From a virus, in the IMG/VR virus record IMGVR_UViG_3300027974_000023, positions 1 through 64,000 of that record: a stretch of DNA of 64,000 bases, one strand, 5' to 3'. This document shows positions 14,101 to 33,209 of this stretch, piece after piece (positions within the stretch are counted from its first letter, which is position 1; every line of letters begins with the position of its first letter). A model generated the notes under the pieces. That model was not told the origin of the DNA and did not search any database. It saw only the letters and a list, made by a program, of their open reading frames with translations. The position numbers and the translations under genes were made by a program.

Positions 14101-17100
14101 TGTATCAGGTTGTCCAAAATCATCTCGGTAACTATAAATTAAATCACTGATTGTTTTATAAGCAGCACTTACATCAAACTCTGATTTAAATGCATCATTC
14201 ATTTTAGATTGAATTTTAGCTAATCTTGTAAATAATTTAGCTCTTTGTTCATAAAAAGCTGTATCATAAACTACTTTAACATTTTGTTTAAGCCATTCAT
14301 TATACTTTTTATTAAACTCAACTGTTCCGTTTTCAATACCAAGTGTTTTAAGACCAATTATGAATTGATTATAAGAAGTCTCAAGGGATCCCTCAAGGGG
14401 AATAAACTCATAGAAACCGCTTGTAGCTTGTCTATGTTGCTGAAGTACTTTAGAAATAGATAAATCATAAATACCTTTAGAAGGATCATCAAATTTAGCA
14501 GTTCCATCTTCATATAAACTAGAATATAACTGTTTGTATTCTCTGTAAGCGGCTTCAATTTCTCCATAATGTTCAAATCTATCAAGTTCTTTTGTAAACT
14601 GATTGTTCAAGTTATTAAATTTATCAAGAGCTTGTTTTCTTGCTAAGTATGCCAAGTTACCAGCTTCAGACTCTTTAAAGATATCATCTTTTTTATAGTA
14701 CTCTGGAGTGTATTCTTGCCACATATAGTCAGTATTAAACTGTCTTAATGCAGATAATGCTTGAGCCGTTTTTTCTTTATCACCTGATTCTTTTGCTTGA
14801 TCATAGTTGTATTCAAGAATATCTAACTGATATCTCCAACCATTACCAAATTCATTTAAGAAAGTGTAGATTTCTTTTTCTGTTGTCTTACCAGTTTTTT
14901 TATCATAAGTCATTATGGTATCTACACCAGCAACCATATCTCTTACCTGAGTAGAATTTAATTTATTAAAGTTTACTTTTGGTAAAAGCTCTTCTAGTTT
15001 TTTCTGAAACTTAGCTGACTTATGCCATACTTCTGTTTCAACTTCAGTCTTTTGATTCTGAATAAAGTTAGCAAGAGGTCCTGCAATGATATCATTACTT
15101 GAACTATATGTCTCTAACCATCTGTTGAACCAAGAGACATCCTTAGCATGTCCTGTTAAAGCTTTTGTAATTCTGTCTTCATCAACAATGTAATCATTAT
15201 ACTTTTTGATGAACTCATTAAGTCTATCAACAGGAACACCATCTTTTGCTAAAGCTTCAATATCTTCTGTTGTTAATGATTGTGTGGTAACTTTATCTAC
15301 AATGCCTGTAATAACATTCTCAAGATCTTCTGGAGCATAAGCTTTTTGTAATGCAGCTTTTAAGTCTGTGTTTAATTGTTTAATAACAAAGTCATTCATA
15401 TAACTGGTTGCTTCAACAAAAAATTGAACATTGTTCTTCTTGTATATATTAGCAATCTGAGTTTGAATTATGCTTACATTATTTTTAAGCTTATTAAGTG
15501 TTATATAGAATTCACTTGATGTATCAATTTCATCAACATTCAAGATATTGTTAATCTCATCTATGATTGAATCCCAGGCATAAGCAGTGTTTTTATACAA
15601 ATTAACTAAACTAACAATCTGTCTATTATTAATATTGCTTTGAGATAAAATTTTGTTTAAGTCTTTGATAATTAAATCACTAGACATGTCCATCTTATTT
15701 AAACTGTTAACTAAAGCATCAGCTTTAAGTTTAGTTTCAATCATTCTTTTTTCTTCAGCATCTAATACATTATCAATAATTGCAGCTGTATCAAGTATAT
15801 TATCTGTTTCAATATTTTGGTATCCTTTAAGAGTACTTACTACTTCTGGTAATAAACTTGTAGTACCTTCTTTAAAAAGAGTTTGTTTAAGTCTTTCATA
15901 AGTAGGTTTATCTGCACGGAAGTTTCTTGCTTGGTTAAGTAAGATTCTGTTTTGTGCATATACTTCATTTACTACTTTTTGTAAAGACTCTGGTGAAGTT
16001 TTACTTACTAACTCATTAGCTCTTTCAGTAACAAATCTCCCGTACATGACCAAGTCATCCTCAGATATCATGTCTGTAGCAAATTCAAAGTCTTTTTCCA
16101 ATAGCATTTCAGCAAGTTCATCTAATGTAGTATCTACATCTAAGTTTTTTACATTGACTTTTTCACCAAAAATATTACGGAGAAATTGCTTCATTGCTGC
16201 TAAAAGCTTAGTGATAAAAGCATCAAAACCTTTTGACTCTATTTCATTATTAACTCTGTTGGTAGCTTTTAATTGTAAAGCAAATGATAATACTTCTTCT
16301 TTAAAAAGATCATTGCCTACTTCTAACTCTGGATATTCTTTTTCTACATGTGCAAAAAGTGTTTTTCCCTCATCTGTCATCATAAGTTGATTAAACAGAT
16401 TGTTAAACAAAGCAGGGTTGCTTTTTCTTATACCTCCTAATAAAGGGTGAGAAAACTCATGAAGAACAGTTCTAACATTTACATTATCCCCTACTACATA
16501 TACAGTTCCAGCATAATAAAATGCAGCTTCTCCATTATATGGCACCGGTGAGCTTTTCAAGGTTTTCACTGCTTCCTCAGCACTAATGTTAAAATAATTC
16601 ACATTTAATCCTTGTGAAAGCCTTTGAGCTAAAACATCAGCAACTTCTTTTGTTCTTGCACTATTTATAATATCAACATTAATGTCAACTAATGGAATTT
16701 CTTCATTGAAACTTATTTCAAATACTTTTTTTATTAATGCTTCATCTTTAAGATCTTCTAAAGCTCTTTTGTTAATTTCACTTTCATAATCACCTTTTCT
16801 TCTGTTAGGAAAATCTTTATCAAAATCTTCTCTAGAATACAAAGAATGCTGATACTCATGATTAATTACAAAATGTTCCCACTCAATATAATTTTTAAAT
16901 ATATCTTCTGGTAACGCTTGTGCAGAACTTTCAACAATTTCACCATGCAAATTTTCTTTTAATTTTCTTGGTTTAGTCCAAGCTTTTTCTTCAAATTTTT
17001 GCTTTAATAAATTTCTGTTTACTTTTATTATATTATTTGCTCTATTATAACTAGCTGCACCTTTACCACCCTCATAAGAAATAATATCTTCAGTATCTAC

Positions 17101-17430
17101 TACAGGAATTCCTTTATAAGTATTAGAGTTTTCTGTAGTTGCTGGTTTATAATTATTGATCTTATCTTGAAGCTCATTAAACAAATAATCATTTGTATAG
17201 ACCTTTTCAGCATTACTGATAATACTTTTTCTGGTAAACAACAGATTTTTACCTCCTGTTATTAAACCATATTTCTTTTCAGCAAGTTCTGTAAGTTTAT
17301 TTATTTGTTCAAGTAATGTACCTTTTTTTGCTATTTGAGCTCTATCAAGTTCAATTACATTGTTATCAGAATCAATAAAACCTTCATCGGTTAAATACTG
17401 CAGTGTTTTTGCTGTTACTTCACAAGTCAT
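11149..17430 (-). CDS. giant virion cargo protein with two zincin motifs, LysM domain and C-terminal hydrophobic helices
   Basis: 2093 aa; HEYQH (aa 191), HEFSH (aa 324); LysM-like HTYAKGESLQEIADKYGITLEELKAKN; hydrophobic MMIVFTALLASMLFG; adjacent to vRNAP as in crAss-like phages. Confidence 0.8.
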   Translation of the reverse strand: MTCEVTAKTLQYLTDEGFIDSDNNVIELDRAQIAKKGTLLEQINKLTELAEKKYGLITGGKNLLFTRKSIISNAEKVYTNDYLFNELQDKINNYKPATTENSNTYKGIPVVDTEDIISYEGGKGAASYNRANNIIKVNRNLLKQKFEEKAWTKPRKLKENLHGEIVESSAQALPEDIFKNYIEWEHFVINHEYQHSLYSREDFDKDFPNRRKGDYESEINKRALEDLKDEALIKKVFEISFNEEIPLVDINVDIINSARTKEVADVLAQRLSQGLNVNYFNISAEEAVKTLKSSPVPYNGEAAFYYAGTVYVVGDNVNVRTVLHEFSHPLLGGIRKSNPALFNNLFNQLMMTDEGKTLFAHVEKEYPELEVGNDLFKEEVLSFALQLKATNRVNNEIESKGFDAFITKLLAAMKQFLRNIFGEKVNVKNLDVDTTLDELAEMLLEKDFEFATDMISEDDLVMYGRFVTERANELVSKTSPESLQKVVNEVYAQNRILLNQARNFRADKPTYERLKQTLFKEGTTSLLPEVVSTLKGYQNIETDNILDTAAIIDNVLDAEEKRMIETKLKADALVNSLNKMDMSSDLIIKDLNKILSQSNINNRQIVSLVNLYKNTAYAWDSIIDEINNILNVDEIDTSSEFYITLNKLKNNVSIIQTQIANIYKKNNVQFFVEATSYMNDFVIKQLNTDLKAALQKAYAPEDLENVITGIVDKVTTQSLTTEDIEALAKDGVPVDRLNEFIKKYNDYIVDEDRITKALTGHAKDVSWFNRWLETYSSSNDIIAGPLANFIQNQKTEVETEVWHKSAKFQKKLEELLPKVNFNKLNSTQVRDMVAGVDTIMTYDKKTGKTTEKEIYTFLNEFGNGWRYQLDILEYNYDQAKESGDKEKTAQALSALRQFNTDYMWQEYTPEYYKKDDIFKESEAGNLAYLARKQALDKFNNLNNQFTKELDRFEHYGEIEAAYREYKQLYSSLYEDGTAKFDDPSKGIYDLSISKVLQQHRQATSGFYEFIPLEGSLETSYNQFIIGLKTLGIENGTVEFNKKYNEWLKQNVKVVYDTAFYEQRAKLFTRLAKIQSKMNDAFKSEFDVSAAYKTISDLIYSYRDDFGQPDTSQLGVERLKKIKDMEQAIINFRNNVDSKSGLSKADTELLNSYADKAKKRTLTPEDSKEYMRLLQKQKDSGIDPKLLVELDALFAELRDMSNKIPTEYYLDAINMHLSKYNIKEVDELTVDDFINSETFQDLLEKDEKLADWFNLNHVENTRYDKDAKDWVNVFQRTAANSFTKPSNPDHFIKTYINNTETGEKIEIFGVPGARHSRLEVKDKYRTIPREDVRENYVGKYIDNKGNFLPRSFQPGVKNSARDDKFMDKRYAALKASNSAEYQLLEAMKEHHLEMQKSQSTFGKLYLDVPRFAVNKGDIYQALNRGAYGERYKEAWGSIKSMLKQQFGTSVVDFENDLNYNPENNLVNTDLRGDEVSYIPVTGLYNLDIKDTDADIIQSMFKYALSLQTQGKLNESLPLVQSLLSTLEDPANQPKNLEKFSKGQFNVRNQLQNINKKGAANNRLGQVRSLIEREYYGVNVIGLEENYPRLGKWLNTLTKLSSKSALTLNIPSDLKNKYSGYVQTLIEGAGGDFITLKDIAIATPWATKAMLEWTTKGIYQIGPGAVSTQLVQVFDPVFKMEDEFGRSITRSLYKDLVNGEWMFMHRKFGEMEVAMKLFGSFLHGQKIDMVGADGKSTLIRYADAWEKDAEGVLQLKKGIHPGWDYKSVYHTYAKGESLQEIADKYGITLEELKAKNSIKVVEQLEDGQEIVIAKSEKFKLFKNRLQGTSRRLFGVYDKFGQPEGNKYIMYRMFFFMRKWFTPMFANRFGMDVSKQNFGGDRYDWALGKTTKGFYISAFQTMWGILKSKGANYQYMTDQEKADFRRFAAEGMMIVFTALLASMLFGYTDDDDDKWKKVKARSGAFGTDEYNTYGFLANHALLLLLGLQAETGAFVPLPKVFGLNLGADDYGKMLTSTTTAFGNTLLLYTEIFGDILNVLTFNEAARFKKDTGPYWWQQKDELKIWKRLFSAVGFTAGTGDPESVLKNLSKGAGRVR

Positions 17431-17433
17431 TTC

Positions 17434-20400
17434 TTAACATTTAAATGGATCACTTTCAAAACCTAATGCTTGCAGTATTTCTGCATCACTTATATCTTGA
17501 TCACTTAGTTCATTATCTATAGCTGAACCTGGATTTACATATCCAAATTCTTCATACAACCTCTTACTTAAATATACAAATAATTCTTGAGGCATTGAGT
17601 ATGCATTTCCATAACCAGCTTTAGAAAAAGCTACTGATTGATTTTGCATTGCCGTTTTAATGTCTGCAATCTTTCTTTCAACCATTTTTTTGTAGTCATC
17701 ATACTTATCAACAGGGAAAGTTTTCATATTATCACCTGGTTTTAAATCTGTAGGAATTGTTATACTCATTTCACCTGCTAATTTAGCAAATTCAGCTTGA
17801 TTAGTCTCAGGTTTTGCAAACTTAGTTTGTATATCTGTTACAGCAGGATTAGTAATATAGATAACATCTGGATGTTGTTTCAACATATTTCTGTAGTAAT
17901 TAACATCAGCATCTTGATCATTAAAAGTCATCATGTTTTCTACAGAAGTTTCTTCTAGATAATCTTGTTCTTCTACAGCTTCAGTAGCTGGTTGAGTAGC
18001 TTTTTCAAGTCTAACATTTGAATCTATTAAATTACTGTTGTCACTTAACTTAAAAGTTTTAAAATCTAAATTGCTGATATAGTCTTTAAGTCTTCCTTTT
18101 TCAGAACCTCTAGAAATGTTGTTTTGAGTTAGGAATAGGTTATTGAAATCATTTAATACTACCTCACTTGTTGAAGAATCTAACACTTTGATAAATGCTT
18201 CAGATTCTTCTTTTAAGATATTAGCAAAATCTGTGTAATCAACAATACTTGTCAAACTGTATGGAGTTTTATTCAATCCGGATTGGATATAAGCATACAT
18301 TGGAAGTTTGTTAAAGAATTGAGAAATCTCAGTTGCTGCTCCATCTTTGTATCCAAGTTTTCTTAAGTATATCACATCACTTAAGTTTTTAATGTTAGTT
18401 GTGTATAAGTTAGCTTTACTGCTATTTACATCTCTATCATTAAGCTTTAAGTTAGCAATCTTAAGCGTATTCTTATCTCTCAATTCATCATATCCAATTT
18501 TCTTAAGAACTTCAAATCTGTTTGCTAGTCTAGGGTATTTCTCTAAAAGCTCAGTGTATCTTTTTGCATAGTTATTATTCTCATCTTTAAACAAGTGAAA
18601 CAAGTTAAAAGTATTGTCCAAAGCTCTCTCAGCTAAGAATTTTTCATATTCAGCTTTAGTTTCATCTTCTCTTTGAGGGAAGGCACTTCTTAAGTATTCT
18701 CTTTCAGCAACAAATTTTGTATATTCAGATAAGTTACCATTTTTGTTACCAGTGAATGTTCCTGCAGGTAATGGATGAAGACCTAGTTTTTCATAACTGT
18801 TTTCTGCTTCAGATTTAATAGCCCAAGCTTTATCAAGAAACTCTTGTTTTATTCTTGCTTCATCAATGTAAAGAGTACCTTTTTTAACAAAGGCTCCAAT
18901 TACATTTGATTTCATATCCGCTGCAGTCATTTTTGTAGAGTTCAGAGACATGTAGCTATCAGACTTAGTATATTTTCTAATAGCATTTTGCAACAAATAC
19001 ATAACTAAGTCATTTCTGAAAGTAGAGCTAAACAAATCTCTTTTGTTTTCACCTACAGTTTCTTTCATTTCTTGAATGATACTCATTTCTTTGTCCATTA
19101 GATATCTACTGATTGCCTTATGGTATCTTAATTTAAATAAAGGTCTGCCTATTGCAAGGGCCAAAGGACCATTAAAGAAAGAAGATATTACAGAATCTTT
19201 TAAAAACTTTTCTACAAGGTAATTAAGATCTTCATTTTCTGCTAAATTTTCTAAGTTAGATTCAGTTTGTTCAACACCCGCAATTACAGATTTTAAACTT
19301 GTATCAGGATTAGTATTCATTTTAACCTGAGCTATTCCTTTTATCTGATCTTCTATCTGTAAGAAATGTAAGAACATTGCTTTAGAAAGTTCACTGTTTG
19401 CCACAGAAGGATCTTTTTTGTAATCCTTAATCAATTTATACATCTCATCTTGAGAAAATTGTTTATCTCCTACAGCTTCCACTGCTGCTTGATAAATTTT
19501 ATCAGATGCATTTTTGTTAAATGAATATCCAAAACGTCTGCTTAATATGTTTTTAGCTGCATTTATTTTAACACCACCAAATTTTGGAACTTTGTGTAAC
19601 ACTTCAGCATAAGCAGAAGTAATTTCTCTTTGTTCTTTTACATACTCTCTTACTAAAGGTTGTGACACAAAGTAAATAGCTTCTTTGATTGGAACACCTG
19701 CTTTTGCTAAATAAGTAAGTATAGGAGCAACTTCATAGTTACCCTGGATAAAGAATATCCATGCATCTTTTTCAACATCTACCCAGCCATTCATTGCTTG
19801 AGAAAAGATATCTGCAATTTTATTATAGTTATCTGCATCATATCTGTTAGAAAGAGAAATTCTTTTTTCTCCATTAACATCCATTGAATTATGTCTCAAA
19901 GCAAGATTAACTTTTTTAATTATCTCAGCACCTTTGTATTGAGCTGGCATGTAAGCTCCAATTGAATTAAAGAGTACATTGAATGTGTTTTCAATAGCAC
20001 CTAGACCAAGGGTTTTCTTACCTACAATGTTTGACTCATGCTTAAAGATATTATAAGCATTCTCTAATACTCTTGTTGGACTGATCATATCCTTATTTTT
20101 CTTGTTTTTTTGACCTTCAGTCATAAAAGTTTCAAAACGGTTATAATCCATTACATATTGAGATAAATCATCAGCAATCTCTTTAAGTAAGAAAGTACCA
20201 TTTGGTGTAATTAGAGATACATAATTACTTGGTAGCTCAAGAATTTCTTTGATGTCTTTAATTAATTCATTCTCTAAACCAGCTTTTTGAGTTTTGAATA
20301 AAGCTTCAGTTGATTCACCTTTAGCATTAAGCTCAGCTATTTGTTTTTTAATCCATTCATTGCTTTCATAGGTTTTTTCTTTAAGCTTACCAGTCTTGTC

Positions 20401-23400
20401 TATGTTAGTCATAAAGATTGTAAGTTTATCAATATCAAAGTCACCTCCGGACTTAGCAACTATCTCTGCTGGAGGAATGATGATATTACCTGCTTGTGGA
20501 GGTAAGAATTCATACACTTCCATAAACTCCATAGAGTTCAAACCTTGAACTGGAATACGTACACCAACAAGTGTTATTGCTTTTCTGTTAGCACCATCAT
20601 TTGCATCTAACCATGTATCATCTTTGACAGCTCTGTTTAATGTCTTGATATCACCAATGATTTGTCCATTATACTCAAGATTCAACAAGTTAGCATAGTC
20701 CCCCTGTAATGCAATCATAACCTTCATTGCTGCGGTTTTACCATCAGCTCTTTTATGATAGGTAGGAAGACCATTGGTACCTAACCATTTTTTCTTCTCT
20801 TCATCTGTAGGATTTTCAAAAGTAGGCATTCCCGTGAAATTGTTCTCATACAGTGCAGATGAAACTTGAATCAATGGTTCACCTTTTACTTTCTGTTTAA
20901 TCACTCTTTTATTGATAAGAGATAATAACAACTTCTCAATCTTACCTGCTTCCGGGTGGAATGAAAGATCATTTACTAATTCACCTGTCTTAGTTGCATC
21001 AATGAATGAAATGATATCATCACTTAATGCATCTTCTCTTTCCAAATTATCTCTGATTAACATCAATAATTTACCAATACTTTCAGCATCTTTTGGAGTA
21101 TATTCTCCAGGAGTAGTCTCATTATAACCAATTTCATTAAGCAACTCAAGTTTTAATAGCTCAGTATATTCAGATACATCATTTAAATACTTATTTACAA
21201 TATCACTTGTTATTGCTTTGTCATTTTTAGTAGTAATTACTCCTTGCTCATAAAGACCATCCAGTATAAGCTTTCTCATCTGAGTAGAAAAAATTGACTT
21301 ACCCTTATATGACTCATTCATTTCTGTTTGATTCTTCAAGTATTCAGCAAATATTGTATTCTTAGTAAATACAGCATCTTTATTAATTGAGTTGTCTGCA
21401 TTAAAGATATTATCACCTGTTCCAATATGGCCAACTTTTGATCCTGACTCAAATAATACATAATCTATACCATCAACCAACATCTTTTCATGTAAGTCAT
21501 ATAAAGGTGTACCTTCTTTAGCCACCCCTGGTACTATTGGAGCAAGGGAGAATTTATGAAAAGATGTTAAAGTAAGACCCTCAGTTTTCATATTACCAAA
21601 ATACTGTAACTTATATGGGGGAAAGTATTTTATTACATCTTCTATAGTTACATCTTCACCTCTAGAAACTTTCTTGTAAAGTTCTTCTTGTTCATCAGAC
21701 CATTTACCTTCTAAGTTTTTAAGATTTCTATATGCTTCAATAGTAATATGACCTTGACCATCACCAATCTTCATTCCATTGTATTCTCCTAATGCAATAT
21801 CAGCTAGTTTTTCAGCTTGTCTAGCATCTTTTAATCTATCTGTGTAATCAGCAATAAGAGCTTCTCTATATTCATTGAAGTATATAGAATTTTCTTCTCT
21901 TTCTTTTATGATAGCTGTATCCAGTGTACCAGTATAGTCTCTTGGAATAATTAGATCAAGACCTTTGTCTTTTCTTTTTTGATTAAGGGTATTGACATAA
22001 ACTTTTTCTAATGCATTTACATATTGCTGATCTTTAAGATCAACACCAAACCCGCCTCCACCGGAACCTAAACCAGCATTACGCTTGTGGAACTCTTCTT
22101 TCTCATGATTGTATTGAGCAAAGTCACCATAAGCAATTATTGCTGTTTCAAATTTATGAATCCATGAATTATAGTTGTATGCTTTTAGTAAAGCTGTTTC
22201 TTTTTCAGAAGGTTTTAGTTTACTGTCTACTCTTGAAAGTAAACCATTATCAATATACTTAGCTTCATCAAGCATAGATTGACTTTGCTTAGTAAGTGCA
22301 TTAAAGTATTTAACTACATCAGCTTTTACCTTCAATCTTAAATCAACATTGTCTGACAATATATCAAACATATTGAATTTAGCATCTTTTGATTTAGAAG
22401 CTTTGTCTATTATAGCATATAAGTCTGCTTGTGTATCTTCTGTAAGAACATCATCAAATGCAGTAAATGCTGCTCCGGCCATTGTTTCTGTACCTTTGCC
22501 ATCTTTTCTTTTTACAGGTCTATTGTACCCAGCCCAGTTTTCAAATTTAGAATCTGATTGAAATCTAAAAATTCTATTTGCTTCACCAGATAAATAACCT
22601 ACTAAAATATCAAATGCTTTTGATTCACCATAAGTTGGGTTTCCTTCAAAAGCTTCAATATCTACATAAAGTTTAGATGCTTTTTTATCAGCATATGTTT
22701 GAATACCATTCTTAGCAGTTAAACCCATTGCACTTTGTTTAGAAGCATGTCTCATGAACTCTTCTAAACCTTGCAATAACATTGTATGCATTTCTTGTAA
22801 GAACTTGCTTGTTGCATCCATAGAAGCAGTAGATACACCTGTAGTACTGGAATCATTTTCACCAATTACTTGTGTACCCGCCATGTTGTAGATACTTAAT
22901 GCATTCTTCTTTTTCTCTCCTGTTTTAATATCATACATTGAATTAATTAACTTGGAGAATTGTGTATAAGTATTGTTATCTACTGACAACCATCTCATAT
23001 GCTGAAACTTGTTATTTGGATCAGCGTCATCTCTAGTTAATTCTTGCCAGTTTTTACCATAATTTAATGAGGTTACTACTCTTGTAATTGTATTATCAAC
23101 AAAATGTTCCCACACTCTATTTTTTTCAGGACTAAGAGCAGCAAAATTTGAATATGCATCAGAGTTTTGTACTTGTAATTCAGCAAGTTTTTTAATTCTT
23201 GATCTTACATCACCAGCTTTTGTTTTATCCATTTTTAATGACTCATCTAAGCCATCTAATAAATTTTTAACTGGATTTAAAGCAAATTCATAAGCTTTAG
23301 GTTCCGCACGGTTAATATAAACTTGTTGCAATGCATCAAATATATATTGTAAACCATACTCCCTACTGAAATTTTTATCTGCTGTAAGTTCTTTTATAAC

Positions 23401-26400
23401 AGGACTTCCTTGATCTAATTTAATTCCAATTGCATTTAAGAATTTTAATGGTACATCTTTACCTGTTTTTAAACCTTTTGTTTGTGGGTCATAGAATGCT
23501 TTTATAACTGCTTCCACGTTAAGAAGGTTTCTACCAAATTTAGTTTCTTTATCAATGAAGTCACTTACACCTGCATCAGCTAATGTAAAAGAATATTGCC
23601 AGTCTTTTACAACAGATTGTATATCAAATGCACTTGTAGATACTCTTGCTTCATTAGTTATGTTACCTTTTTCATCAGTAACTCTATTAATATTTAACTG
23701 ATTGTAACGGATTCTTGGTTTTTTAAGGTCTTGCCAGAATTTAGTAATTGTATTAAAAGCAATTTTATCAGAGTACTTCTCACTGTCTTTAGCAGGAAGT
23801 AATGTCAATAGTTGAATAAACTCAGGATAATTTTCTTTGTTTGCTTCAATTCTATCATACATTTCATTTTTATCAAATGAACCTTCAAGTACTTTTGCTA
23901 GTCTGTTCCAATTATTATTATAATCTTCTAATTGTTTAAACCCAAACTCATCAACTTCATATACATAACCATTATCATTTGTAATAATCTTGTTATTTTC
24001 ATTTCTTGCTATTTTGAATAAACTACTCAAAACAGTTACAGTCTCAATACTTGCTAAGTCTTTTGAATTAATAGTATTACCACTGTCTGACTTGATGATT
24101 GTTGGGTCTTCTAATGATTCTGTGAAAGTATCATTAAGCAGTTTAAATTTTGAGTTTGCTAAATGGAAAGCTATTACACCTGTTTTTTGTTGCCCAGTAA
24201 CAGATAATTCAGGATCACCAAAACTTTCTATTGTTTTGTTTAACAATTCAATTTTAGCTAATGCATTTTCTTCAGTTATTATATCTTCATCACTAAGCTC
24301 ATCTTTAGCTAGGTTAGAATTTACAATACTTTCAAACTGTGCTACTTTAAGTTTCCATAAATTATCCAACTCAGCTTTAACATTTTTGTACAGTATAACT
24401 CTGTTATTAGTACTACGTAAAAATTTAACAGGACCTGTGGAAGTTTGTCTATCTAAATTGTAATTTTCAAAAACATCTGCTATGATATTATCAATTGTAT
24501 TTGTCATTAATACTGATTCATCAATTGTAAATGGAGCAAAGTCTTTTGCTGCAGTTTTTACAGGAACAATATTATCTTTTAATCTGTTAAGCTGAGTAAA
24601 CATCATGTTCTCAGCATTTGCTTTTAGATTTTGGAATATGTCAGGAGTTGCAGAAGCTCTGTACAACATGTCATACAACTCCCTAACGGATTCAATATCC
24701 CTAGGTCTAGTAGCCATTTCAGTTGTCTTAACTTTTGCAAACATGTTGCGCAAAAAAGCATAAATCCTTTTAAACACTTCTCCAAGAAAACCTTTAGGTG
24801 CTTCTTTCTTGCCTTTACTTTTTGCATAAGATCTGAAATCTTCAGCAATTGCTTCTTCAATATCAATGTAATCTGCTTTAGCCCATTTCTTGTTTGTACG
24901 GAGCTCATTATATAATTTTATTTTTTCATCTTTTGTTAAGAACAACTGTGAGAATGCATGCCAAGATTCATGATACAAATCTACTGCAGTACCTCCATCA
25001 GCTTGATAAAGAGTAATACCTGAACCAGTAAATGTTGCAAATGCATCTGAGTTCACTACTTCAGTAATTCTTTTAAGACTGATTAAATTTTTAGTACTAC
25101 CTGGAGAAAGTCTTTCTTTTTCTTTATTTGCTTCACTGTCTTTATTTAATGGAGAATTTTTCCACCATTTCTCAGCTCTTTCTCTGTCAGCTTTATTTGT
25201 AAACACTCTATCTAAGAAATTAGATACAGATTTTTTTCTGTCTAATTTATCAAAATCAATTTTCTCAGAAGTTTTTGTTGATGGAGTATTTATAATTGCA
25301 CTTCTTGTTTGTATATCTGGTATACCTGGTGTTCTATCTTCTATTATAACTTTATCTGCTGCAGGTTTTGTTATAGTTCTACTTACAGAAGGTTTAGCTG
25401 GTAAATCAGTTTTAGGTTCTTCTGTTTTAATTGGAGTTTTGATTTTATCTGCTGGCTTAAATACTGAGATTCCAAAGTTAGGAACATTAGGGAAGTCAGC
25501 CGGTAAATCAGCAGGTAGACTAAATCCTAAGTAAGCATTTAATCCATTGTAATATGCATTTGTATCACCTGTATACTGAATTTTCATGTATGGTTTAATT
25601 GCATCAAAATGACTCATTTCTTTTGCAATTACTTTATCACCATTAATTTCATAGTCAGTAAAAGGTTTATCTTTATAAGTTTTATTATAATGCACATTTA
25701 ATGGATAAGTTCCAGTAATATTTCCTTGCTTATTCTTTTTTACTTTTCCTTTAAGAAGTGCTTCTTTTATAATTTGTTTTCCTTCTTCACTATATAATAC
25801 ATTTTCTGGTATTGCTTTACCTTTGATTTTAACAACAAGTTCTTTGTTACTATTAAGAACCACTTCAATACTACTTGGTTCACCATCTGTAATAGTAGTA
25901 TTGTAAACAAATACTTCAAAGAATGTTCTTTTATCAGCACCACTAAATTCTTCACCATTAAGCTTACCCTTACTTGTTAAAACATCAGCAATTTTAGCAG
26001 CAAGTGTCTCATCCATATCTGATTTTAGATATACTGTTTGATCTATTTTACCACCTGGTGTTTCAGTACTATAATCAAAAGAAACATATCCTGTTTTAGG
26101 ATGGTATTCATAAGATTTAAGATCTGCTTCTGATAGCTCTGTAAAACTTTTTATTGACTTAGGTGCAGGTACTTTCTCATATGCTCCAAAAGATCCACCT
26201 GTTATAGGAGTAACAATAGCTTTACCTGTTTCACTAACATATTTTCTTAATGCAAATAATTGATTCATCTGCATTTGTTGAGCTTTCTTTATTTCATTAA
26301 CTCTAGTATCAAAAGCAGCTTTTGAATAGTCAGTACCTAACTCTTTTTGCTCTCTTTCAACTATTGATTCAGCATCAAGCAATTGATAAGCATAACCAGA

Positions 26401-27261
26401 CTTATTTTTAAAAAGAAGTCTATTAGTGTCACTTAACTGAGGTTTTCTTATAGTTTGATAGATTATTCTACCATCTTGTGGATTTTCAGTAATCTCACCA
26501 TTTTCTTTAAAATAAACTGGTGAACCATCTGTGTATGTTACAACTCCATAAAGTTCAGTATCTTCTCCTTTATAATATGCTTTATCAGATTCCAATCTAT
26601 AATCATCTGGAAACTGATTAGCTCTCATTATAGTAAGACCAAGTTCTTTACCAGCATAAGTAACAGTATCATCTTCATTTCTGTTCTTAGCAAAATAAAC
26701 TATGTCTCTAATTACTTTGTAAAATAAAGCTTTCTCAGGATCTTTTACATTTTTTTCTGATGTAGTTGATGGATTTACTGCAATTGCTTCTTGACCTGTT
26801 GTAAACATTGGAAATAAAATCCTTGCTGCAGATTTTTGATATTCAGCAACTTTTTCTTCAGGAAGTTCTTCATATGAAACATCTTCCTTATGGTTTAAAA
26901 TATCAGTAACTGTGTCTTCAATTTCATCAGGTGTTATAGGAGCAGGATTTACATAAGTATTTACAGTTTCTAAATTTTCAAAATCTGAACTTAAATCTGC
27001 TAAGGCATCAAAACTAAACTTACTTTGTCTTAGTTTTTTTCTTATTTCTGAATCATTTCCAACCAAATAAAAAATATCAGGAACAGCTTGTGCATATTGT
27101 AAAGCTTTACCTGTATCTTCTGTAGCTTCTAGAACTATTTTATAAAGTTGTTTTATCAATCCCTCTAAATCAAAACTTTCCAAAGTATCAGCTCCAGAAA
27201 GTTTTTTATAAATTAATTGATAAACATCACCAATTTGCTCTTGGGTAAGTGAACATGCCAT
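17434..27261 (-). CDS. virion-associated two-barrel RNA polymerase (crAss-like vRNAP) with zincin domain
   Basis: 3275 aa; catalytic GGDFDIDKL (nt 20428-20442) preceded by VRIPVQGLNSM; HESWH...EEAIAEDF zincin at aa 764. DFDID is the motif known from phi14:2 gp66-type polymerases. Confidence 0.9.
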   Translation of the reverse strand: MACSLTQEQIGDVYQLIYKKLSGADTLESFDLEGLIKQLYKIVLEATEDTGKALQYAQAVPDIFYLVGNDSEIRKKLRQSKFSFDALADLSSDFENLETVNTYVNPAPITPDEIEDTVTDILNHKEDVSYEELPEEKVAEYQKSAARILFPMFTTGQEAIAVNPSTTSEKNVKDPEKALFYKVIRDIVYFAKNRNEDDTVTYAGKELGLTIMRANQFPDDYRLESDKAYYKGEDTELYGVVTYTDGSPVYFKENGEITENPQDGRIIYQTIRKPQLSDTNRLLFKNKSGYAYQLLDAESIVEREQKELGTDYSKAAFDTRVNEIKKAQQMQMNQLFALRKYVSETGKAIVTPITGGSFGAYEKVPAPKSIKSFTELSEADLKSYEYHPKTGYVSFDYSTETPGGKIDQTVYLKSDMDETLAAKIADVLTSKGKLNGEEFSGADKRTFFEVFVYNTTITDGEPSSIEVVLNSNKELVVKIKGKAIPENVLYSEEGKQIIKEALLKGKVKKNKQGNITGTYPLNVHYNKTYKDKPFTDYEINGDKVIAKEMSHFDAIKPYMKIQYTGDTNAYYNGLNAYLGFSLPADLPADFPNVPNFGISVFKPADKIKTPIKTEEPKTDLPAKPSVSRTITKPAADKVIIEDRTPGIPDIQTRSAIINTPSTKTSEKIDFDKLDRKKSVSNFLDRVFTNKADRERAEKWWKNSPLNKDSEANKEKERLSPGSTKNLISLKRITEVVNSDAFATFTGSGITLYQADGGTAVDLYHESWHAFSQLFLTKDEKIKLYNELRTNKKWAKADYIDIEEAIAEDFRSYAKSKGKKEAPKGFLGEVFKRIYAFLRNMFAKVKTTEMATRPRDIESVRELYDMLYRASATPDIFQNLKANAENMMFTQLNRLKDNIVPVKTAAKDFAPFTIDESVLMTNTIDNIIADVFENYNLDRQTSTGPVKFLRSTNNRVILYKNVKAELDNLWKLKVAQFESIVNSNLAKDELSDEDIITEENALAKIELLNKTIESFGDPELSVTGQQKTGVIAFHLANSKFKLLNDTFTESLEDPTIIKSDSGNTINSKDLASIETVTVLSSLFKIARNENNKIITNDNGYVYEVDEFGFKQLEDYNNNWNRLAKVLEGSFDKNEMYDRIEANKENYPEFIQLLTLLPAKDSEKYSDKIAFNTITKFWQDLKKPRIRYNQLNINRVTDEKGNITNEARVSTSAFDIQSVVKDWQYSFTLADAGVSDFIDKETKFGRNLLNVEAVIKAFYDPQTKGLKTGKDVPLKFLNAIGIKLDQGSPVIKELTADKNFSREYGLQYIFDALQQVYINRAEPKAYEFALNPVKNLLDGLDESLKMDKTKAGDVRSRIKKLAELQVQNSDAYSNFAALSPEKNRVWEHFVDNTITRVVTSLNYGKNWQELTRDDADPNNKFQHMRWLSVDNNTYTQFSKLINSMYDIKTGEKKKNALSIYNMAGTQVIGENDSSTTGVSTASMDATSKFLQEMHTMLLQGLEEFMRHASKQSAMGLTAKNGIQTYADKKASKLYVDIEAFEGNPTYGESKAFDILVGYLSGEANRIFRFQSDSKFENWAGYNRPVKRKDGKGTETMAGAAFTAFDDVLTEDTQADLYAIIDKASKSKDAKFNMFDILSDNVDLRLKVKADVVKYFNALTKQSQSMLDEAKYIDNGLLSRVDSKLKPSEKETALLKAYNYNSWIHKFETAIIAYGDFAQYNHEKEEFHKRNAGLGSGGGGFGVDLKDQQYVNALEKVYVNTLNQKRKDKGLDLIIPRDYTGTLDTAIIKEREENSIYFNEYREALIADYTDRLKDARQAEKLADIALGEYNGMKIGDGQGHITIEAYRNLKNLEGKWSDEQEELYKKVSRGEDVTIEDVIKYFPPYKLQYFGNMKTEGLTLTSFHKFSLAPIVPGVAKEGTPLYDLHEKMLVDGIDYVLFESGSKVGHIGTGDNIFNADNSINKDAVFTKNTIFAEYLKNQTEMNESYKGKSIFSTQMRKLILDGLYEQGVITTKNDKAITSDIVNKYLNDVSEYTELLKLELLNEIGYNETTPGEYTPKDAESIGKLLMLIRDNLEREDALSDDIISFIDATKTGELVNDLSFHPEAGKIEKLLLSLINKRVIKQKVKGEPLIQVSSALYENNFTGMPTFENPTDEEKKKWLGTNGLPTYHKRADGKTAAMKVMIALQGDYANLLNLEYNGQIIGDIKTLNRAVKDDTWLDANDGANRKAITLVGVRIPVQGLNSMEFMEVYEFLPPQAGNIIIPPAEIVAKSGGDFDIDKLTIFMTNIDKTGKLKEKTYESNEWIKKQIAELNAKGESTEALFKTQKAGLENELIKDIKEILELPSNYVSLITPNGTFLLKEIADDLSQYVMDYNRFETFMTEGQKNKKNKDMISPTRVLENAYNIFKHESNIVGKKTLGLGAIENTFNVLFNSIGAYMPAQYKGAEIIKKVNLALRHNSMDVNGEKRISLSNRYDADNYNKIADIFSQAMNGWVDVEKDAWIFFIQGNYEVAPILTYLAKAGVPIKEAIYFVSQPLVREYVKEQREITSAYAEVLHKVPKFGGVKINAAKNILSRRFGYSFNKNASDKIYQAAVEAVGDKQFSQDEMYKLIKDYKKDPSVANSELSKAMFLHFLQIEDQIKGIAQVKMNTNPDTSLKSVIAGVEQTESNLENLAENEDLNYLVEKFLKDSVISSFFNGPLALAIGRPLFKLRYHKAISRYLMDKEMSIIQEMKETVGENKRDLFSSTFRNDLVMYLLQNAIRKYTKSDSYMSLNSTKMTAADMKSNVIGAFVKKGTLYIDEARIKQEFLDKAWAIKSEAENSYEKLGLHPLPAGTFTGNKNGNLSEYTKFVAEREYLRSAFPQREDETKAEYEKFLAERALDNTFNLFHLFKDENNNYAKRYTELLEKYPRLANRFEVLKKIGYDELRDKNTLKIANLKLNDRDVNSSKANLYTTNIKNLSDVIYLRKLGYKDGAATEISQFFNKLPMYAYIQSGLNKTPYSLTSIVDYTDFANILKEESEAFIKVLDSSTSEVVLNDFNNLFLTQNNISRGSEKGRLKDYISNLDFKTFKLSDNSNLIDSNVRLEKATQPATEAVEEQDYLEETSVENMMTFNDQDADVNYYRNMLKQHPDVIYITNPAVTDIQTKFAKPETNQAEFAKLAGEMSITIPTDLKPGDNMKTFPVDKYDDYKKMVERKIADIKTAMQNQSVAFSKAGYGNAYSMPQELFVYLSKRLYEEFGYVNPGSAIDNELSDQDISDAEILQALGFESDPFKC

Positions 27262-27264
27262 ATC

Positions 27265-30200
27265 TTAACAGTATTTAGCGTTAGTTTGAATCTTACTGAT
27301 TATCTCATCTTCTGATTTGTTATCAGTCTCTTTTTTTAATTTACTAATTTCTTCAGTATTTTCTGAGAATTTTAAAAAATTCTCATGAGATTCTTTAGAA
27401 TTTGCTACATCTTCTTGTGTAACTATTGGTGCATTCATGTTTTCCACAGCTTCTTTAGTTGTTTTAATGAACATTTCTTTCATTTCCTCTTCTGTAAATG
27501 TTTTTGTTTCATCTGTCATTGAGTCCTTAACAATCACATTGTTGCCTTTGACTTGTGTTACAAAAACAAATTCATTTTCATAGTTTGTAAAGATAGGAAC
27601 TTTAGCCATCAATAACTCACCAACTTCAAGATTATCAACAGAAATTTTTGTTTTTAATTCATATTGTTTAGCTGCATATGCATCAGCAATTTCTGATGCT
27701 AATTCGGGATTATCAATAAGAGCTTCTGCTGTTAATTTACCAAGTTCAGTCATGTTTTTAGCTTTACTGAAATCCATTATAGGATTTTTAGCAGTTTCTT
27801 CATCTAACAATTCTTCATCAGTAACTTTTGTAGAATTGATTATTTCTCCAAGTTCTTCTTCTGTTGCGGGTTTAACCTCAGGTGAGCTTTCCCCCATTGA
27901 AGAACTTGTTGTCATTGAAATAGCAGAATCTACTCTAACTATACCAGCGTTTTCAATCTCTGGTAAATATTCTAAATCATAAACATTTTGATCTTCAGCA
28001 AGTAATGAAGATTTTTTAATACTAGTTATTTTACCATCAAGATTTGCTTCAAATTCAATTGGTAATATAGATATGTCAGGAGTAATACCAGTCATGTTAT
28101 ACACCAATGTTTGATAAATAGATTGCTGAGCTCTATGCTCTAGTTTTCTACGGTTATTTTCTTTTTCATAAGATTTCCAAGTAGAACCAGAAGAAAGTTT
28201 GATATCAATAATCTTTAATTTACCATCAGTTGTTAATGCAAGTAAATCTAACTCACCTGTAATACCATTTTCTCTTAAGGATTTGTCAAACACAAGAACA
28301 TTGTTAGATAGTATTCTAAGTTTGTTATCAAATATGTCATTTAACAGTGGAGCAATGATACCAGTATTTGCATCAAACAATGCATCATATGCATCCTTAG
28401 TCATTATATCTGATACCCTAACTCTTTGCCCATTAATATCAATTGAGTCTGTATATGGTACTGCTTTAAATTTAATTTCATCATTAGAAATAGAAAGTGA
28501 TTCTCTAATTAAAGCATCTGCATTTGTTCCTGCTGTGCTTCTGTGATTAAAAGCAATATTATCAAGAGCTTTTAAAAATTCTTCTTTTGGTAAGTCTAAA
28601 GCTTTTTCTACCTGATCTAATTTTGTTGCATTAGTACCAAAGGTTCCTCTAAATTCTGCTGCTCTTTTTTGAAATGCTAACATGAATTGGTTAATAGGAT
28701 CTGTTACAGTAGGGTCATTAAAAATCCTATCATACATTTCTATTATTGTTTCATATTTACTTTCATTGATAGGAGTAAAGAAATAATCTGGTTTACCAAC
28801 CATTTTAGTTACAACCTCATCAGATACTTGAGTAGCTCTTAAAGGTGTGTTTTCAGAATCAACAAATTTTCTACCTGTCTTAACACCTTCTTCATTAAAT
28901 ACATCTTCTACTTCTCCTCTTCTATTTACAATGTTTTGTTCTACATTGTTATAAGTTTCTTGAGCAATATTTTGTGGTTTATAAACTTGTTTTCTGCTGT
29001 TTATATAACCTTTTAAAGCCTCAATGTCTTCTTTAATAAGGGCAAGTTCATCAGCTGTAGCTTCAATAGTTTTAGATTTTGAATTTAAAAACTTACCAGT
29101 GTCAACAATTTTCTGAAGATTTTTTAAATAGTCTGTTAAAGTATTTAGAGCATCTTTTCCTGATACTTGTAATTTGAAAAATTTTAAGAATGGTGGTCTG
29201 GCAAGTTCCTTAGCGCGTTCAACTGCCTCAGCTCTTGCCTTCTCACCATAAGCTTTAAATAATTTAGTTTGACTTTGCAACCAGTTAGCTCTTGTACGTT
29301 CAAAATTTTCTGGATTAGTTTGTTGTAAATTTGGATCTTCTAATTGTTCAGTAAGAAACTTTGCAAACTCTTCATCAACCATGGCTTTTAACCCTTCTGG
29401 TAAATTTTCATAAGGAGTAGCTGTAGTTACTTCTTCATAAGTATTTTCATCAACACCTTGTTCTTTAAATTCATCTTTTACTTCTTGAACAAAACCATCA
29501 TATTTTTCATTGATCTGGTTTACATCACTTTGGTATGCTAAATACTCTGGAAAAGCTTCAATATCAAAAGTCTCAGGAGACTTAACATTTTTAATTTGCT
29601 CCTCAAGATCTTTAATGTTGTTCTCAAGGATGTTTTTATATACTTCAATTGTAAATGCATTATTTATAGCATCAGCTTTTTCCTGTGGTGTTTGAGCATC
29701 AGGATTAAAAATAGGACCTCTTTTTCTTGCTTTTTCAATTATAGTTTTATCAGAAGCTGCTATAGTCTGAGCATCATTGAAGCTTTCTTCAGATACAAGC
29801 TCTTCCAATTTAGGATAGATGTCAATCATTCCTTGAACAGTGTCTCCATTCAGGATGTTCAAATAAACTTCTTGTTCTTCTTTTTGAATTTCTAATGCAA
29901 CTATTTCTTCTCTTGAAGTATCTTCATTTAAAGTTTTTCTTATATCATCAAATATACCTGCCTCATCTTTACCATAAGCTTTTACTAATTCTCTATTATA
30001 ATTTTCATTAGCATCTTCTAAGTCTTTACTTCTTCTTTCTTCAATATCATCAAGTCTATCTTGCATTTTTTCTTTCTCAGATACCGGATTACCCGCAGCT
30101 GGAATTGCATTCATATTTGTTGCATCAATGAAAAGATCTAAGTAGTCAGCATAAAGAGGGCTGTTTTGGTTGATGATCATACCTCTTGTTTCATCAATAA

Positions 30201-33204: not shown

Positions 33205-33209
33205 AATTA

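What the first reader, a model, noticed from the sequence alone, without database searches (positions are those of the whole stretch)
17422..27270. Two near-identical in-frame gene junctions make a 22-kb single frame with only two internal stops
Seen on the - strand: junction 27253-27270 reads TGT TAA GAT ATG GCA TGT and junction 17422-17439 reads TGT TAA GAA ATG ACT TGT. They are 15/18 nt identical and each has a 3-nt spacer, so 33204 to 11149 is one frame of 7352 codons. Readthrough would give C-x-[D/E]-M-[A/T]-C and a polyprotein of about 7350 aa. Inference: this is either a translational-coupling signal giving equimolar co-translational assembly, occasional readthrough, or the trace of an ancestral polyprotein or junction duplication. 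TAA is usually an efficient stop, so coupling is more likely than readthrough.
Basis: partly seen in the sequence, partly recalled or inferred. Interest (0 to 1): 0.7.

Follow-up and report, generated by a model that had tools for sequence, protein, structure and literature searches.

The report
Terminal cysteine pairs link phage cargo
The two look-alike gene junctions are alike because three giant proteins that this crAss-like phage packs into its particle have no cysteine at all except one at each end that faces the next protein, which most likely lets disulfide bonds tie them end to end; the shared reading frame itself is chance.

Summary
In detail: three minus-strand genes (A 27265-33204, B 17434-27261, C 11149-17430) lie in one frame, separated by TAA plus 3 nt, and the junctions match at 15 of 18 nt.

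The frame is chance. Among 50 relatives with both junctions tight, 5 have both in frame, about 1 in 9. Spacers run from -10 to +36 nt. The phage genome has no tRNA gene, and TAA is its main stop. Readthrough is not supported, and tight spacing is generic here (12 of 21 junctions are 5 nt or less).

The junctions look alike because of cysteine codons. A, B and C hold 4 Cys in 7,353 residues, all at the junctions: A's last residue, B's residue 3 and last residue, and C's residue 3.

In 135 non-duplicate related loci, 122 of 124 B|C and 60 of 63 A|B junctions carry both Cys. All five exceptions are called-frame artefacts. Where A and B are fused (51 loci) the pair is absent. Two independent new splits each carry a new pair. 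The pattern also holds in phi14:2, crAss001, DAC15 and IAS virus.

Cryo-EM of cyanophage A4 shows the same signature forming a disulfide (gp27 Cys1715 with gp26 Cys5).

Best reading: a disulfide-linked A-B-C cargo chain with the virion RNA polymerase in the middle. It is untested. This scan has noted the same pattern before in other genomes.

The parts
27265..33204 (-). Gene A, giant cargo protein (1,979 aa from the ATG at 33204). Its only Cys is the last residue. It has a Gly-rich hydrophobic stretch near the N-terminus.
   Evidence: Alignment A3 of 15 A proteins has the last-residue Cys invariant. An A-family HMM hits crAss001 gp47, E 1.9e-30.
27253..27270 (-). A|B junction: Cys codon (27268-27270), TAA, 3-nt spacer, ATG, GCA, Cys codon (27253-27255).
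   Evidence: In related split loci, 60 of 63 A|B junctions have Cys on both sides. The 3 exceptions were resolved.
17434..27261 (-). Gene B, 3,275 aa: virion RNA polymerase of the crAss type with an N-terminal zincin-like module. It has two Cys only, residue 3 and the last residue.
   Evidence: tblastn to crAss001 'putative RNA polymerase' (6e-18) and phi14:2 g066 (5e-16). In alignment A1, C3 is invariant and C3275 is in at least 90% of rows.
24958..24972 (-). HExxH motif of B (H764, E765, H768): zincin-like metallopeptidase signature.
   Evidence: Invariant in 20 B homologues. The motif name is from general knowledge; no Pfam hit.
20428..20442 (-). DFDID motif of B (D2274, D2276, D2278): catalytic aspartates of the two-barrel RNA polymerase.
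   Evidence: Invariant in A1. The DFDxD motif is described for crAss-like virion RNAPs in the abstract of 10.1101/2020.03.07.982082.
17437..17526 (-). B tail: the last 30 residues, predicted flexible with one short helix (SDAEILQ), ending in Cys3275.
   Evidence: AF2 on alignment A5: blocks of the last 30 residues have pLDDT 55, 60, 50; helix at 244-250 of the 260-aa piece; last 3 residues below 50.
17422..17439 (-). B|C junction: Cys codon (17437-17439), TAA, 3-nt spacer, ATG, ACT, Cys codon (17422-17424).
   Evidence: In relatives, 122 of 124 B|C junctions have Cys on both sides. The 2 exceptions were resolved.
17146..17430 (-). C head: a conserved N-terminal domain of about 95 residues, starting M-T-C.
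   Evidence: Alignment A4 (M1 and C3 invariant). AF2 gives pLDDT 89-96 over residues 1-90, with a helix at 4-15 right after Cys3. No significant fold match; best E 0.1, winged-helix-like proteins.
11149..17430 (-). Gene C, 2,093 aa: cargo protein with two HExxH motifs, a LysM domain and hydrophobic C-terminal segments. Its only Cys is residue 3.
   Evidence: Of 120 homologues, 111 have a Cys in the first 12 residues, and it is the sole Cys in 107. A C-family HMM hits crAss001 gp49, IAS gp057, DAC15 gp077 and phi14:2 g065.
12001..12117 (-). LysM domain of C (residues 1772-1810).
   Evidence: Pfam PF01476, E 2.1e-5, 24.8 bits against a cut-off of 20.9.
33210..36443 (-). Gene Z, 1,077 aa with 0 Cys, just upstream of A (5-nt spacer). 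It serves as an internal control: an equally tight junction without cysteines.
   Evidence: In relatives, 0 of 51 Z|A junctions have a Cys on either side although 50 of 51 are tight.

Best explanation
The window is part of a 129-kb crAss-like phage. A, B and C are its giant virion cargo proteins, with the virion RNA polymerase (B) in the middle. Like ejected proteins of other podophages they are kept free of cysteine, with four exceptions: the last residue of A, residue 3 and the last residue of B, and residue 3 of C.

I read these as two clasps. The flexible C-terminal tail of one protein docks on the folded N-terminal head of the next. The two cysteines then form an interchain disulfide, giving one thread A-S-S-B-S-S-C of uniform N-to-C polarity inside the particle.

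Such a thread would keep the three proteins together at 1:1:1 for packaging and for passage through the tail. It would fall apart in the reducing cytoplasm of the next host.

Shown here:
- the sequence rule itself;
- its conservation across the order;
- its loss where genes are fused and its gain where genes are newly split;
- the predicted tail and head anatomy.

Inferred: the disulfide itself (by analogy with the solved A4 gp27-gp26 bond), the order of events and the purpose.

The near-identity of the two junctions follows from Cys codon, TAA, short A-rich spacer, ATG, small residue, Cys codon. The common frame is accidental.
For: (1) Cysteine placement. There are 4 Cys in 7,353 aa, all at the junctions, against 1.87% in the window's other listed ORFs.

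(2) Protein-level conservation.
- C homologues: 111 of 120 have an N-terminal Cys, and it is the sole Cys in 107.
- B homologues: 45 of 46 have a C-terminal Cys and 31 of 46 an N-terminal one.
- The Cys codon is TGT or TGC. The Cys sits 0-6 residues from the C-end and at position 3-7 from the N-end.

(3) Tallies in 135 non-duplicate loci.
- B|C: both Cys in 122 of 124.
- A|B: both Cys in 60 of 63.
- The outer ends are never Cys: 0 of 118 C-ends of C, and 0 of 51 N-ends of A.
- Z|A control: 0 of 51.

(4) Fusions. The N-terminal part of the 3,750-5,400-aa proteins is A-like (hhalign 96.6%, E 5.6e-10). In these, 0 of 51 have an N-terminal Cys and no Cys pair sits at the fused boundary.

(5) Independent new splits inside the fused clade (tree).
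- L126 is split at another place. Its new junction copies its own B|C junction: head 27 of 44 identical, E 7e-19.
- L146 is split with a GIY-YIG-like ORF in between. The upstream protein ends ..QCS and the downstream one starts MSC.

(6) The rule survives gene rearrangement. In crAss001, DAC15 and IAS virus the A gene is on the other strand and the Cys is kept.

(7) Anatomy. A flexible tail with a short helix meets a confidently folded head.

(8) Precedent. Cryo-EM of cyanopodophage A4 shows the gp27 C-terminal helix in a cleft of gp26, fixed by a Cys1715-Cys5 disulfide (PMC12002296, passages). I checked that these are the sole Cys of a 1,717-aa and a 1,114-aa protein encoded 5 nt apart.

(9) crAss001 virions do carry disulfides, in tail and portal-vertex proteins (PMC10172136, passages).
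Against: - No experiment or structure shows the bond in any crAss-like phage. The only solved relative is phi14:2 gp66 alone (6VR4).
- Particles assemble in a reducing cytoplasm, so the bond could form only after docking or after lysis. Gut crAss phages live without oxygen.
- Apart from the cysteines, heads of B and C, and tails of A and B, are not significantly alike across the family (hhalign probability 2% and 1%). A common docking module is therefore not shown.
- A4 proteins share no detectable sequence similarity with A, B or C (best E 0.096), so the precedent is an analogy.
- The split-versus-fused contrast rests on few independent events: 2 changes on the tree plus L126.
- Unresolved rows: P0146 lacks a C-terminal Cys, and 9 of 120 C homologues have other N-termini and no Cys, probably miscalled starts that I could not check.
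- In the Intestiviridae (crAssphage LMMB, crAss002) orthology was not confirmed by my HMMs.
Confidence: 0.68

Rival explanations
1. The junction is a nucleotide-level signal for translational coupling (termination and re-initiation), giving equimolar synthesis. On this view the cysteine codons are part of, or incidental to, that signal.
For: Spacers are short in most relatives. For A|B, 53 of 61 lie between -1 and +4. For B|C, 84 of 116 lie between -1 and +4. The stop is TAA in 116 of 124 B|C junctions.
Against: - Tight spacing is generic: 12 of 21 window junctions are 5 nt or less, and Z|A is tight in 50 of 51 loci without any Cys.
- The Cys stays when the genes are not adjacent: 8 loci with gaps of 0.6-2.2 kb, and the A gene on the opposite strand in crAss001, DAC15 and IAS virus.
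- The position of the Cys relative to stop and start varies, and TGC occurs.

Coupling may well happen, but it does not explain the conserved feature.
Confidence: 0.1
2. Occasional readthrough of TAA yields an A-B-C polyprotein of about 7,350 aa, which the in-built zincin protease might then cut.
For: The window has one frame with only two internal TAA. Natural A-B fusions exist. [quoted passage not shown]
Against: - Both junctions are in frame in only 5 of 50 relatives, the chance value.
- Overlapping stop-start forms such as TAATG are common: a spacer of -1 occurs in 22 of 116.
- ARAGORN finds no tRNA gene in the whole genome, and TAA closes 60 of 82 long frames.
- Rfam finds nothing in the window.
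Confidence: 0.02
3. The paired terminal cysteines do join neighbouring proteins, but through a bridging metal ion or another thiol chemistry rather than a disulfide.
For: The pairing logic is the same as in the best explanation. Assembly takes place in a reducing cytoplasm, where a metal bridge could form earlier than a disulfide.
Against: Each side offers a single Cys, and no conserved His or second Cys lies beside it (alignments A4 and A5). The only solved example of this signature is a disulfide (PMC12002296).
Confidence: 0.12
4. Each terminal cysteine acts on its own, for example by anchoring its protein to a cysteine of the portal or capsid or by carrying a modification. They are not partners.
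For: Structural proteins of the window are Cys-rich (up to 7.6%). crAss001 tail and portal-vertex proteins form disulfides.
Against: The cysteines appear and vanish in pairs. Both are absent in 51 of 51 A-B fusions, and both are present at the two new splits. The outer ends of the chain never have one (0 of 118 and 0 of 51).
Confidence: 0.06

Closest known systems
Cyanopodophage A4 (Anabaena phage A-4L) ejection proteins gp27 and gp26: disulfide Cys1715-Cys5 in the pre-ejectosome (PNAS 2025, PMC12002296; passages read)
   Same: The sole Cys of a giant ejection protein lies 2 residues from its C-end, and the sole Cys of the next-encoded protein is at position 5. The genes are adjacent, 5 nt apart. 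A C-terminal helix docks on the next protein and the bond fixes it. This matches the predicted tail helix and folded head here.
   Different: There is no detectable sequence similarity, and A4 belongs to another phage family (Saffermanviridae). A4 has one link, not two, and no RNA polymerase in the chain. In A4 the bond sits in a fivefold ring on the portal, whereas crAss001 cargo showed no ordered density. The gain and loss with gene fission and fusion is shown only here.
crAss-like virion RNA polymerase module: phi14:2 gp67-gp66-gp65 (gp66 structure 6VR4) and crAss001 gp47-gp50-gp49 cargo proteins (PMC10172136; 10.1101/2020.03.07.982082)
   Same: B is homologous to gp66 and gp50, C to gp65 and gp49, and A to gp47. 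The same terminal-Cys rule holds in them. They are found in virions and must partly unfold to leave through the tail.
   Different: Neither paper mentions these cysteines: 'cysteine' has 0 occurrences in both texts, and 'disulfide' appears only for tail and portal-vertex proteins. The window's proteins are larger, and B carries an extra N-terminal zincin-like module.
Cysteine suppression in ejection proteins of N4-like phages (Schitoviridae; PMC11445570, passages)
   Same: Giant ejected proteins, including a virion RNA polymerase, are almost free of Cys. N4 gp50, gp51 and gp52 have 0 Cys. Here the rate is 0.051% over 824,464 residues.
   Different: N4-like proteins have no terminal cysteines at all, and their polymerase is unrelated (single-subunit T7-like, from general knowledge). 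Here the only cysteines left are the paired terminal ones.
Interchain disulfides of AB-type protein toxins, reduced after translocation (general knowledge, not tested here)
   Same: The functional logic: a covalent link holds two chains together outside the cell and is released by the reducing cytoplasm.
   Different: There is no homology. In toxins the two chains come from one nicked polypeptide, whereas here they are separate gene products. This is a resemblance of mechanism only.

Membership tests
crAss-like (Crassvirales) virion RNA polymerase, gp66/gp50 family | Sequence homology to phi14:2 gp66 and crAss001 gp50 | tested here: met
   tblastn gave 109 phage records, nearly all crAss-like. 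crAss001 RNAP E 6e-18, phi14:2 g066 E 5e-16, about 25% identity.
crAss-like (Crassvirales) virion RNA polymerase, gp66/gp50 family | DFDxD catalytic motif | tested here: met
   DFDID at B 2274-2278, invariant in 20 homologues.
crAss-like (Crassvirales) virion RNA polymerase, gp66/gp50 family | Packaged in the virion and ejected | not testable with these tools
   Known for phi14:2 and crAss001 from papers. Inferred here by orthology.
Head-to-tail disulfide between ejection proteins (A4 gp27-gp26 type) | Sole or nearly sole Cys within a few residues of the C-end of the upstream protein and of the N-end of the next | tested here: met
   Window. Relatives: 122 of 124 and 60 of 63. A4 itself.
Head-to-tail disulfide between ejection proteins (A4 gp27-gp26 type) | Disulfide bond seen in the particle | not testable with these tools
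   No structure of a crAss cargo complex exists; the PDB holds only 6VR4.
Head-to-tail disulfide between ejection proteins (A4 gp27-gp26 type) | Sequence homology to A4 gp27 or gp26 | tested here: not met
   blastp best E 0.096. The window therefore works like this system but is not a member of the same protein family.
Programmed stop-codon readthrough or recoding | In-frame arrangement conserved among relatives | tested here: not met
   Both junctions are in frame in 5 of 50; all three frame relations occur.
Programmed stop-codon readthrough or recoding | Suppressor tRNA or a known recoding RNA element | tested here: not met
   No tRNA genes in 128,825 bp. No Rfam match in the window.
Translational coupling by termination and re-initiation | Stop and start within a few nucleotides, conserved | tested here: inconclusive
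   Spacers are mostly -1 to +4, but the same holds for Cys-free junctions (Z|A 50 of 51; window 12 of 21). The effect itself cannot be measured here.
Cysteine-suppressed ejection proteins (as in Schitoviridae) | Cys frequency far below that of the proteome | tested here: met
   0.05% in A, B and C against 1.87% in the other listed ORFs. In relatives, 418 Cys in 824,464 residues.
Split intein or protein trans-splicing | Intein (Hint) halves flanking the junction | tested here: not met
   Pfam finds nothing in A or B and only LysM in C. The head domain has no significant fold match.

The most novel reading that the evidence does not exclude
The tail-plus-head clasp is a portable 'split and relink' device. 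Wherever the giant cargo gene is broken, whether by a homing-endonuclease insertion (L146) or by copying an existing junction into a new place (L126), the two products are re-joined after translation by a docked tail helix and a disulfide. The whole RNA-polymerase module then still travels as one thread. Reduction of the links in the new host's cytoplasm would be the switch that releases, and perhaps activates, the self-inhibited virion RNA polymerase.
Probability: 0.3. Interest if true: 0.8.

Novelty: new variant of a known kind. Interest (0 to 1): 0.6.

Why it matters
crAss-like phages are the most abundant viruses of the human gut. How they pack and deliver close to a megadalton of protein, including the polymerase that starts infection, is still open. 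The crAss001 atlas saw no ordered density for these proteins, and the phi14:2 work left open how the polymerase is activated (passages).

A rule that places the only cysteines exactly where one cargo protein must meet the next gives a simple, testable model: one disulfide-linked thread with a defined order and polarity, released by the host's reducing cytoplasm. Existing cultured phages and standard gels or mass spectrometry could test it.

It also gives annotators a practical marker for true starts and ends, and for fusion or fission of these giant genes.

For the finding as written, the lesson is negative. A 22-kb single frame with two stops is not evidence of readthrough here.

Tried and rejected
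- **Near-identical DNA in the phage collection.** megablast of the region found nothing.
- **Pfam and PHROGs on A, B, C.** Only LysM in C. PHROGs on nine neighbouring ORFs gave a homing endonuclease and some 'virion structural protein' hits, but nothing for Z or the other Cys-free proteins.
- **B-C or A-B-C fusions.** The 'longer' search with C (3,664-5,000 aa only) gave 3 hits covering 5-6% of C, a shared small domain and not fusions. The B-C fusion of p-crAssphage-type phages therefore rests on the GenBank product name and on lengths. My A and C HMMs did not reach those proteins.
- **Common origin of the two clasp types.** hhalign of B heads against C heads, and of A tails against B tails, was not significant at probability 2% and 1%. 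'Junction duplication' is shown only for L126.
- **Fold searches.** The C head and the last B domain gave no significant match, best E 0.1 and 0.064.
- **PDB by sequence.** Nothing for A, B or C. Only 6VR4 for phi14:2 gp66.
- **Co-folding tail and head.** I considered reading TAA as a residue to co-fold them, and did not do it. It would use a code to build a convenient chain, and the two Cys would be neighbours trivially.
- **Literature.** Searches found no paper describing terminal cysteines in crAss cargo proteins. Extended Data Table 3 of PMC10172136, and its reduced versus untreated mass-spectrometry samples, may bear on the claim.
- **Rows dropped before counts.** Of 160 loci, 4 had no recognisable B frame (L001, L097, L113, L155) and 21 were duplicates by the polymerase core. 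For the tree, 134 rows were used.

Full report
**1. The observation**

On the minus strand, 27270-27253 reads TGT TAA GAT ATG GCA TGT and 17439-17422 reads TGT TAA GAA ATG ACT TGT. Read directly, 15 of 18 positions are identical.

The ORF list gives three giant minus-strand genes:
- A, 27265..33222. The likely start is the ATG at 33204, giving MAEN.. as in relatives.
- B, 17434..27261, 3,275 aa.
- C, 11149..17430, 2,093 aa.

Translating 33222-11149 in one frame gives stops only at the two junctions and at the end, all TAA. The description is correct.

**2. What the genes are**

B's second half matches the 'putative RNA polymerase' of crAss001 (E 6e-18) and g066 of Cellulophaga phage phi14:2 (E 5e-16). 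In all, 109 phage records match, nearly all crAss-like.

An alignment of 20 B homologues has DFDID (D2274, D2276, D2278) and an HExxH (H764, E765, H768) invariant.

C has a LysM domain. By HMM it is the counterpart of crAss001 gp49, IAS gp057, DAC15 gp077 and phi14:2 g065. A is the counterpart of crAss001 gp47 (16 known proteins scanned, and other A-like candidates were not reached).

The window lies in a 128,825-bp virus record rated complete.

From passages of PMC10172136: gp47, gp49 and gp50 are found in crAss001 virions, are thought to be stored in the capsid, and must partly unfold to pass the tail. From a passage of 10.1101/2020.03.07.982082: the three proteins are in virions, and in some phages they are fused into one polyprotein.

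**3. The feature behind the look-alike junctions**

A, B and C contain 4 cysteines in 7,353 residues. The other ORFs listed have 242 in 12,955 residues (1.87%). The four are A's last residue, B's residue 3 and last residue, and C's residue 3.

The 18-nt words are alike because 12 of the 18 nt are two Cys codons, the stop and the start. The remaining 6 nt match at 3.

**4. Is the single frame meaningful? No.**

I fetched 160 related loci from IMG/VR and called frames with a script. After removing 4 loci without a recognisable polymerase frame and 21 duplicates, 135 remained.

| Junction | Spacer range | In frame |
|---|---|---|
| B\|C | -10 to +36 nt (116 tight cases) | 32 of 116 |
| A\|B | -4 to +17 nt, plus one artefact at -41 | 16 of 61 |
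| Both junctions | both spacers equal 3 in 4 of 50 | 5 of 50 |

That is the 1-in-9 expected by chance. TAG and TGA also occur as the stop.

The whole genome has no tRNA gene, and TAA closes 60 of 82 long frames. Rfam finds nothing in the window.

Short spacers are the norm in this genome: 12 of 21 minus-strand junctions are 5 nt or less. Coupling is possible but not specific.

**5. The cysteine rule is conserved at the protein level**

- C homologues (46-97% identity): 111 of 120 have a Cys in the first 12 residues, and it is the only Cys in 107. The 9 others have no Cys at all and unrelated N-termini, probably miscalled starts, which I could not check. One has a C-terminal Cys.
- B homologues (23-98% identity): 45 of 46 have a C-terminal Cys and 31 of 46 an N-terminal one.

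Tallies in the loci:

| Test | Result |
|---|---|
| B\|C with Cys on both sides | 122 of 124 |
| A\|B with Cys on both sides | 60 of 63 |
| C-terminus of C with a Cys | 0 of 118 |
| N-terminus of A with a Cys | 0 of 51 |
| Z\|A junction with a Cys on either side | 0 of 51 (tight in 50 of 51) |
| Overall Cys content | 418 in 824,464 residues (0.051%) |

The five exceptions dissolve on inspection:
- L062 has an M-A-C head ORF right after B, then a frame break.
- In L129 the true C follows inserted genes and starts M-S-C.
- L067 has its M-V-N-C head followed by a frame break.
- L120 and L130 are fused genes with a frameshift.

The codon is TGT or TGC. The Cys lies 0-6 residues from the C-end and at position 3-7 from the N-end. 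So the residue is selected, not a DNA word.

**6. Natural experiments**

(a) Fusions. In 51 of the 135 loci, A and B are one protein of 3,750-5,400 aa. Its N-terminal part is A-like (hhalign 96.6%, E 5.6e-10 over 305 columns). None of the 51 has an N-terminal Cys. None of the upstream Z-like proteins has a C-terminal Cys. The fused proteins hold 1 to 3 Cys in all (28, 18 and 2 of 48 complete ones), with one of them at the C-end.

(b) New splits. On a FastTree of the polymerase core (134 rows), split and fused forms need 2 changes.
- L126, which I left out of that count, lies inside a fused clade. It is split about 1,269 residues before DFDID, not at the usual 2,100-2,660. Its A' aligns to residues 1-1745 and its B' (from residue 62) to residues 2065-4218 of the fused relative L117. 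The new tail and the 61-residue head are extra. They copy L126's own B|C junction: head 27 of 44 identical, E 7e-19; tail 9 of 17.
- L146, also inside the fused clade, is split 1,478 residues before DFDID. A 221-aa GIY-YIG-like ORF lies between the halves. The upstream half ends ..QCS and the downstream half starts MSC.

(c) Rearrangement. In crAss001, DAC15 and IAS virus the A gene lies on the opposite strand, yet it ends in Cys (positions -2, -2 and last). B and C start with Cys at position 4-5.
- phi14:2 shows the pure pattern: g067 has 1 Cys, the last residue; g066 has C3 and C2179 of 2,180; g065 has C3.
- In crAssphage LMMB a 1,957-aa protein has Cys at -1, and the next, a 4,070-aa protein annotated as a fusion, starts M-S-C and has no C-terminal Cys.
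- In crAss002, gp32 has its only Cys at -1. gp33 has an internal Met33 followed by S-C, probably the real start.

(d) Distance. The pair persists in 6 of the 8 loci where B and C are 0.6-2.2 kb apart. The other two are L062 and L129, explained above.

Cysteines thus come and go in pairs, exactly at chain breaks and never at the outer ends. In every two-protein architecture the pair is a C-end with the next N-end.

**7. Anatomy**

AF2 on 38-row alignments gives two pictures.
- C's first ~95 residues form a confident domain (pLDDT 89-96), with Cys3 just before helix 4-15.
- B's last folded domain ends about 30 residues before the end. The rest is flexible (pLDDT 50-60), with one short helix and the Cys at the very tip.

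Neither part has a significant fold match.

**8. What is known**

A look-up in this scan's earlier notes showed that the same cysteine pattern was noted before on at least eight other crAss-like genomes. It also pointed to a paper, which I then read in passages: the cryo-EM of cyanopodophage A4 (PMC12002296). [quoted passage not shown]

I checked the genome record. gp27 has 1,717 aa and one Cys, at 1715. gp26 has 1,114 aa and one Cys, at 5. The genes are 5 nt apart. That is the same signature, seen as a real bond. There is no sequence similarity to A, B or C.

For N4-like phages the near-absence of cysteine in ejection proteins is published (PMC11445570, passages). N4 gp50, gp51 and gp52 have none.

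In the two crAss papers, 'cysteine' does not occur, and disulfides are reported only for tail and portal-vertex proteins. Five literature searches found no description of terminal cysteines in crAss cargo proteins. Supplements and subscription-only papers were not seen.

**9. Reading**

Most likely (0.68) the two pairs form interchain disulfides, making a thread A-B-C with uniform polarity and the polymerase in the middle.

The purpose is inferred: keeping the three together at equal numbers for packaging and ejection, with release by reduction in the host.

Alternatives are a metal bridge (0.12), a coupling signal as the cause of the likeness (0.10), independent roles of each Cys (0.06) and readthrough (0.02).

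**10. Verdict**

The single frame is chance.

What is there is a new variant of a known kind, an A4-type head-to-tail disulfide between cysteine-suppressed ejection proteins. Here it is doubled, flanks a virion RNA polymerase, and tracks gene fission and fusion across the crAss-like phages.

Noticed in passing
L146:1-1140 (IMG/VR locus): A 221-aa GIY-YIG-like ORF sits exactly between the two halves of a newly split polymerase gene. This suggests that homing-endonuclease insertion can create such splits.
   Followed up: partly
L126:15640-15820 and 22090-22270: The two junctions of this relative share a tail (..EQ..EI...KCKG) and a 44-residue head (61% identical). The overlap TAATG is the same at both. 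It looks like a junction cassette copied into the middle of a fused gene.
   Followed up: yes
window 36443-37084 (-): A GIY-YIG homing endonuclease (PHROG 314, E 3e-35) lies between Z and the next cargo-region gene, overlapping Z's start by one base. Another first-stage note on this genome says the same.
   Followed up: partly
window 33210-36443, 40052-42082, 42140-43633 (-): Three further proteins next to the giants (1,077, 676 and 497 aa) have no cysteine at all and no PHROG or Pfam family. They are probably further ejected cargo.
   Followed up: partly
whole genome G000 (128,825 bp): ARAGORN finds no tRNA gene, which is unusual for a phage genome of this size. TAA closes 60 of 82 long frames.
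   Followed up: no
window 16651-17145 (-) and homologues (alignment A4, columns about 120-480): Right after the conserved 95-residue head, C homologues diverge completely and carry different inserted modules. Precomputed Pfam lists GNAT acetyltransferase and AAA_33 kinase in some. This is a hot spot for accessory domains.
   Followed up: no
B homologues P0128-P0168: The polymerase giants carry varied extra domains by precomputed Pfam: zeta-toxin/AAA_33 kinase, SF1 helicase domains, DUF1768 (PF08719), MoCo-carrier-like (PF12694) and PF25176.
   Followed up: no
L165:15951-16050 (crAss002 gp33) and 9 C homologues: Annotated or called starts that lack the M-x-C head are probably wrong. In crAss002 an internal Met33-Ser-Cys fits the rule. 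The rule could serve to correct starts.
   Followed up: partly
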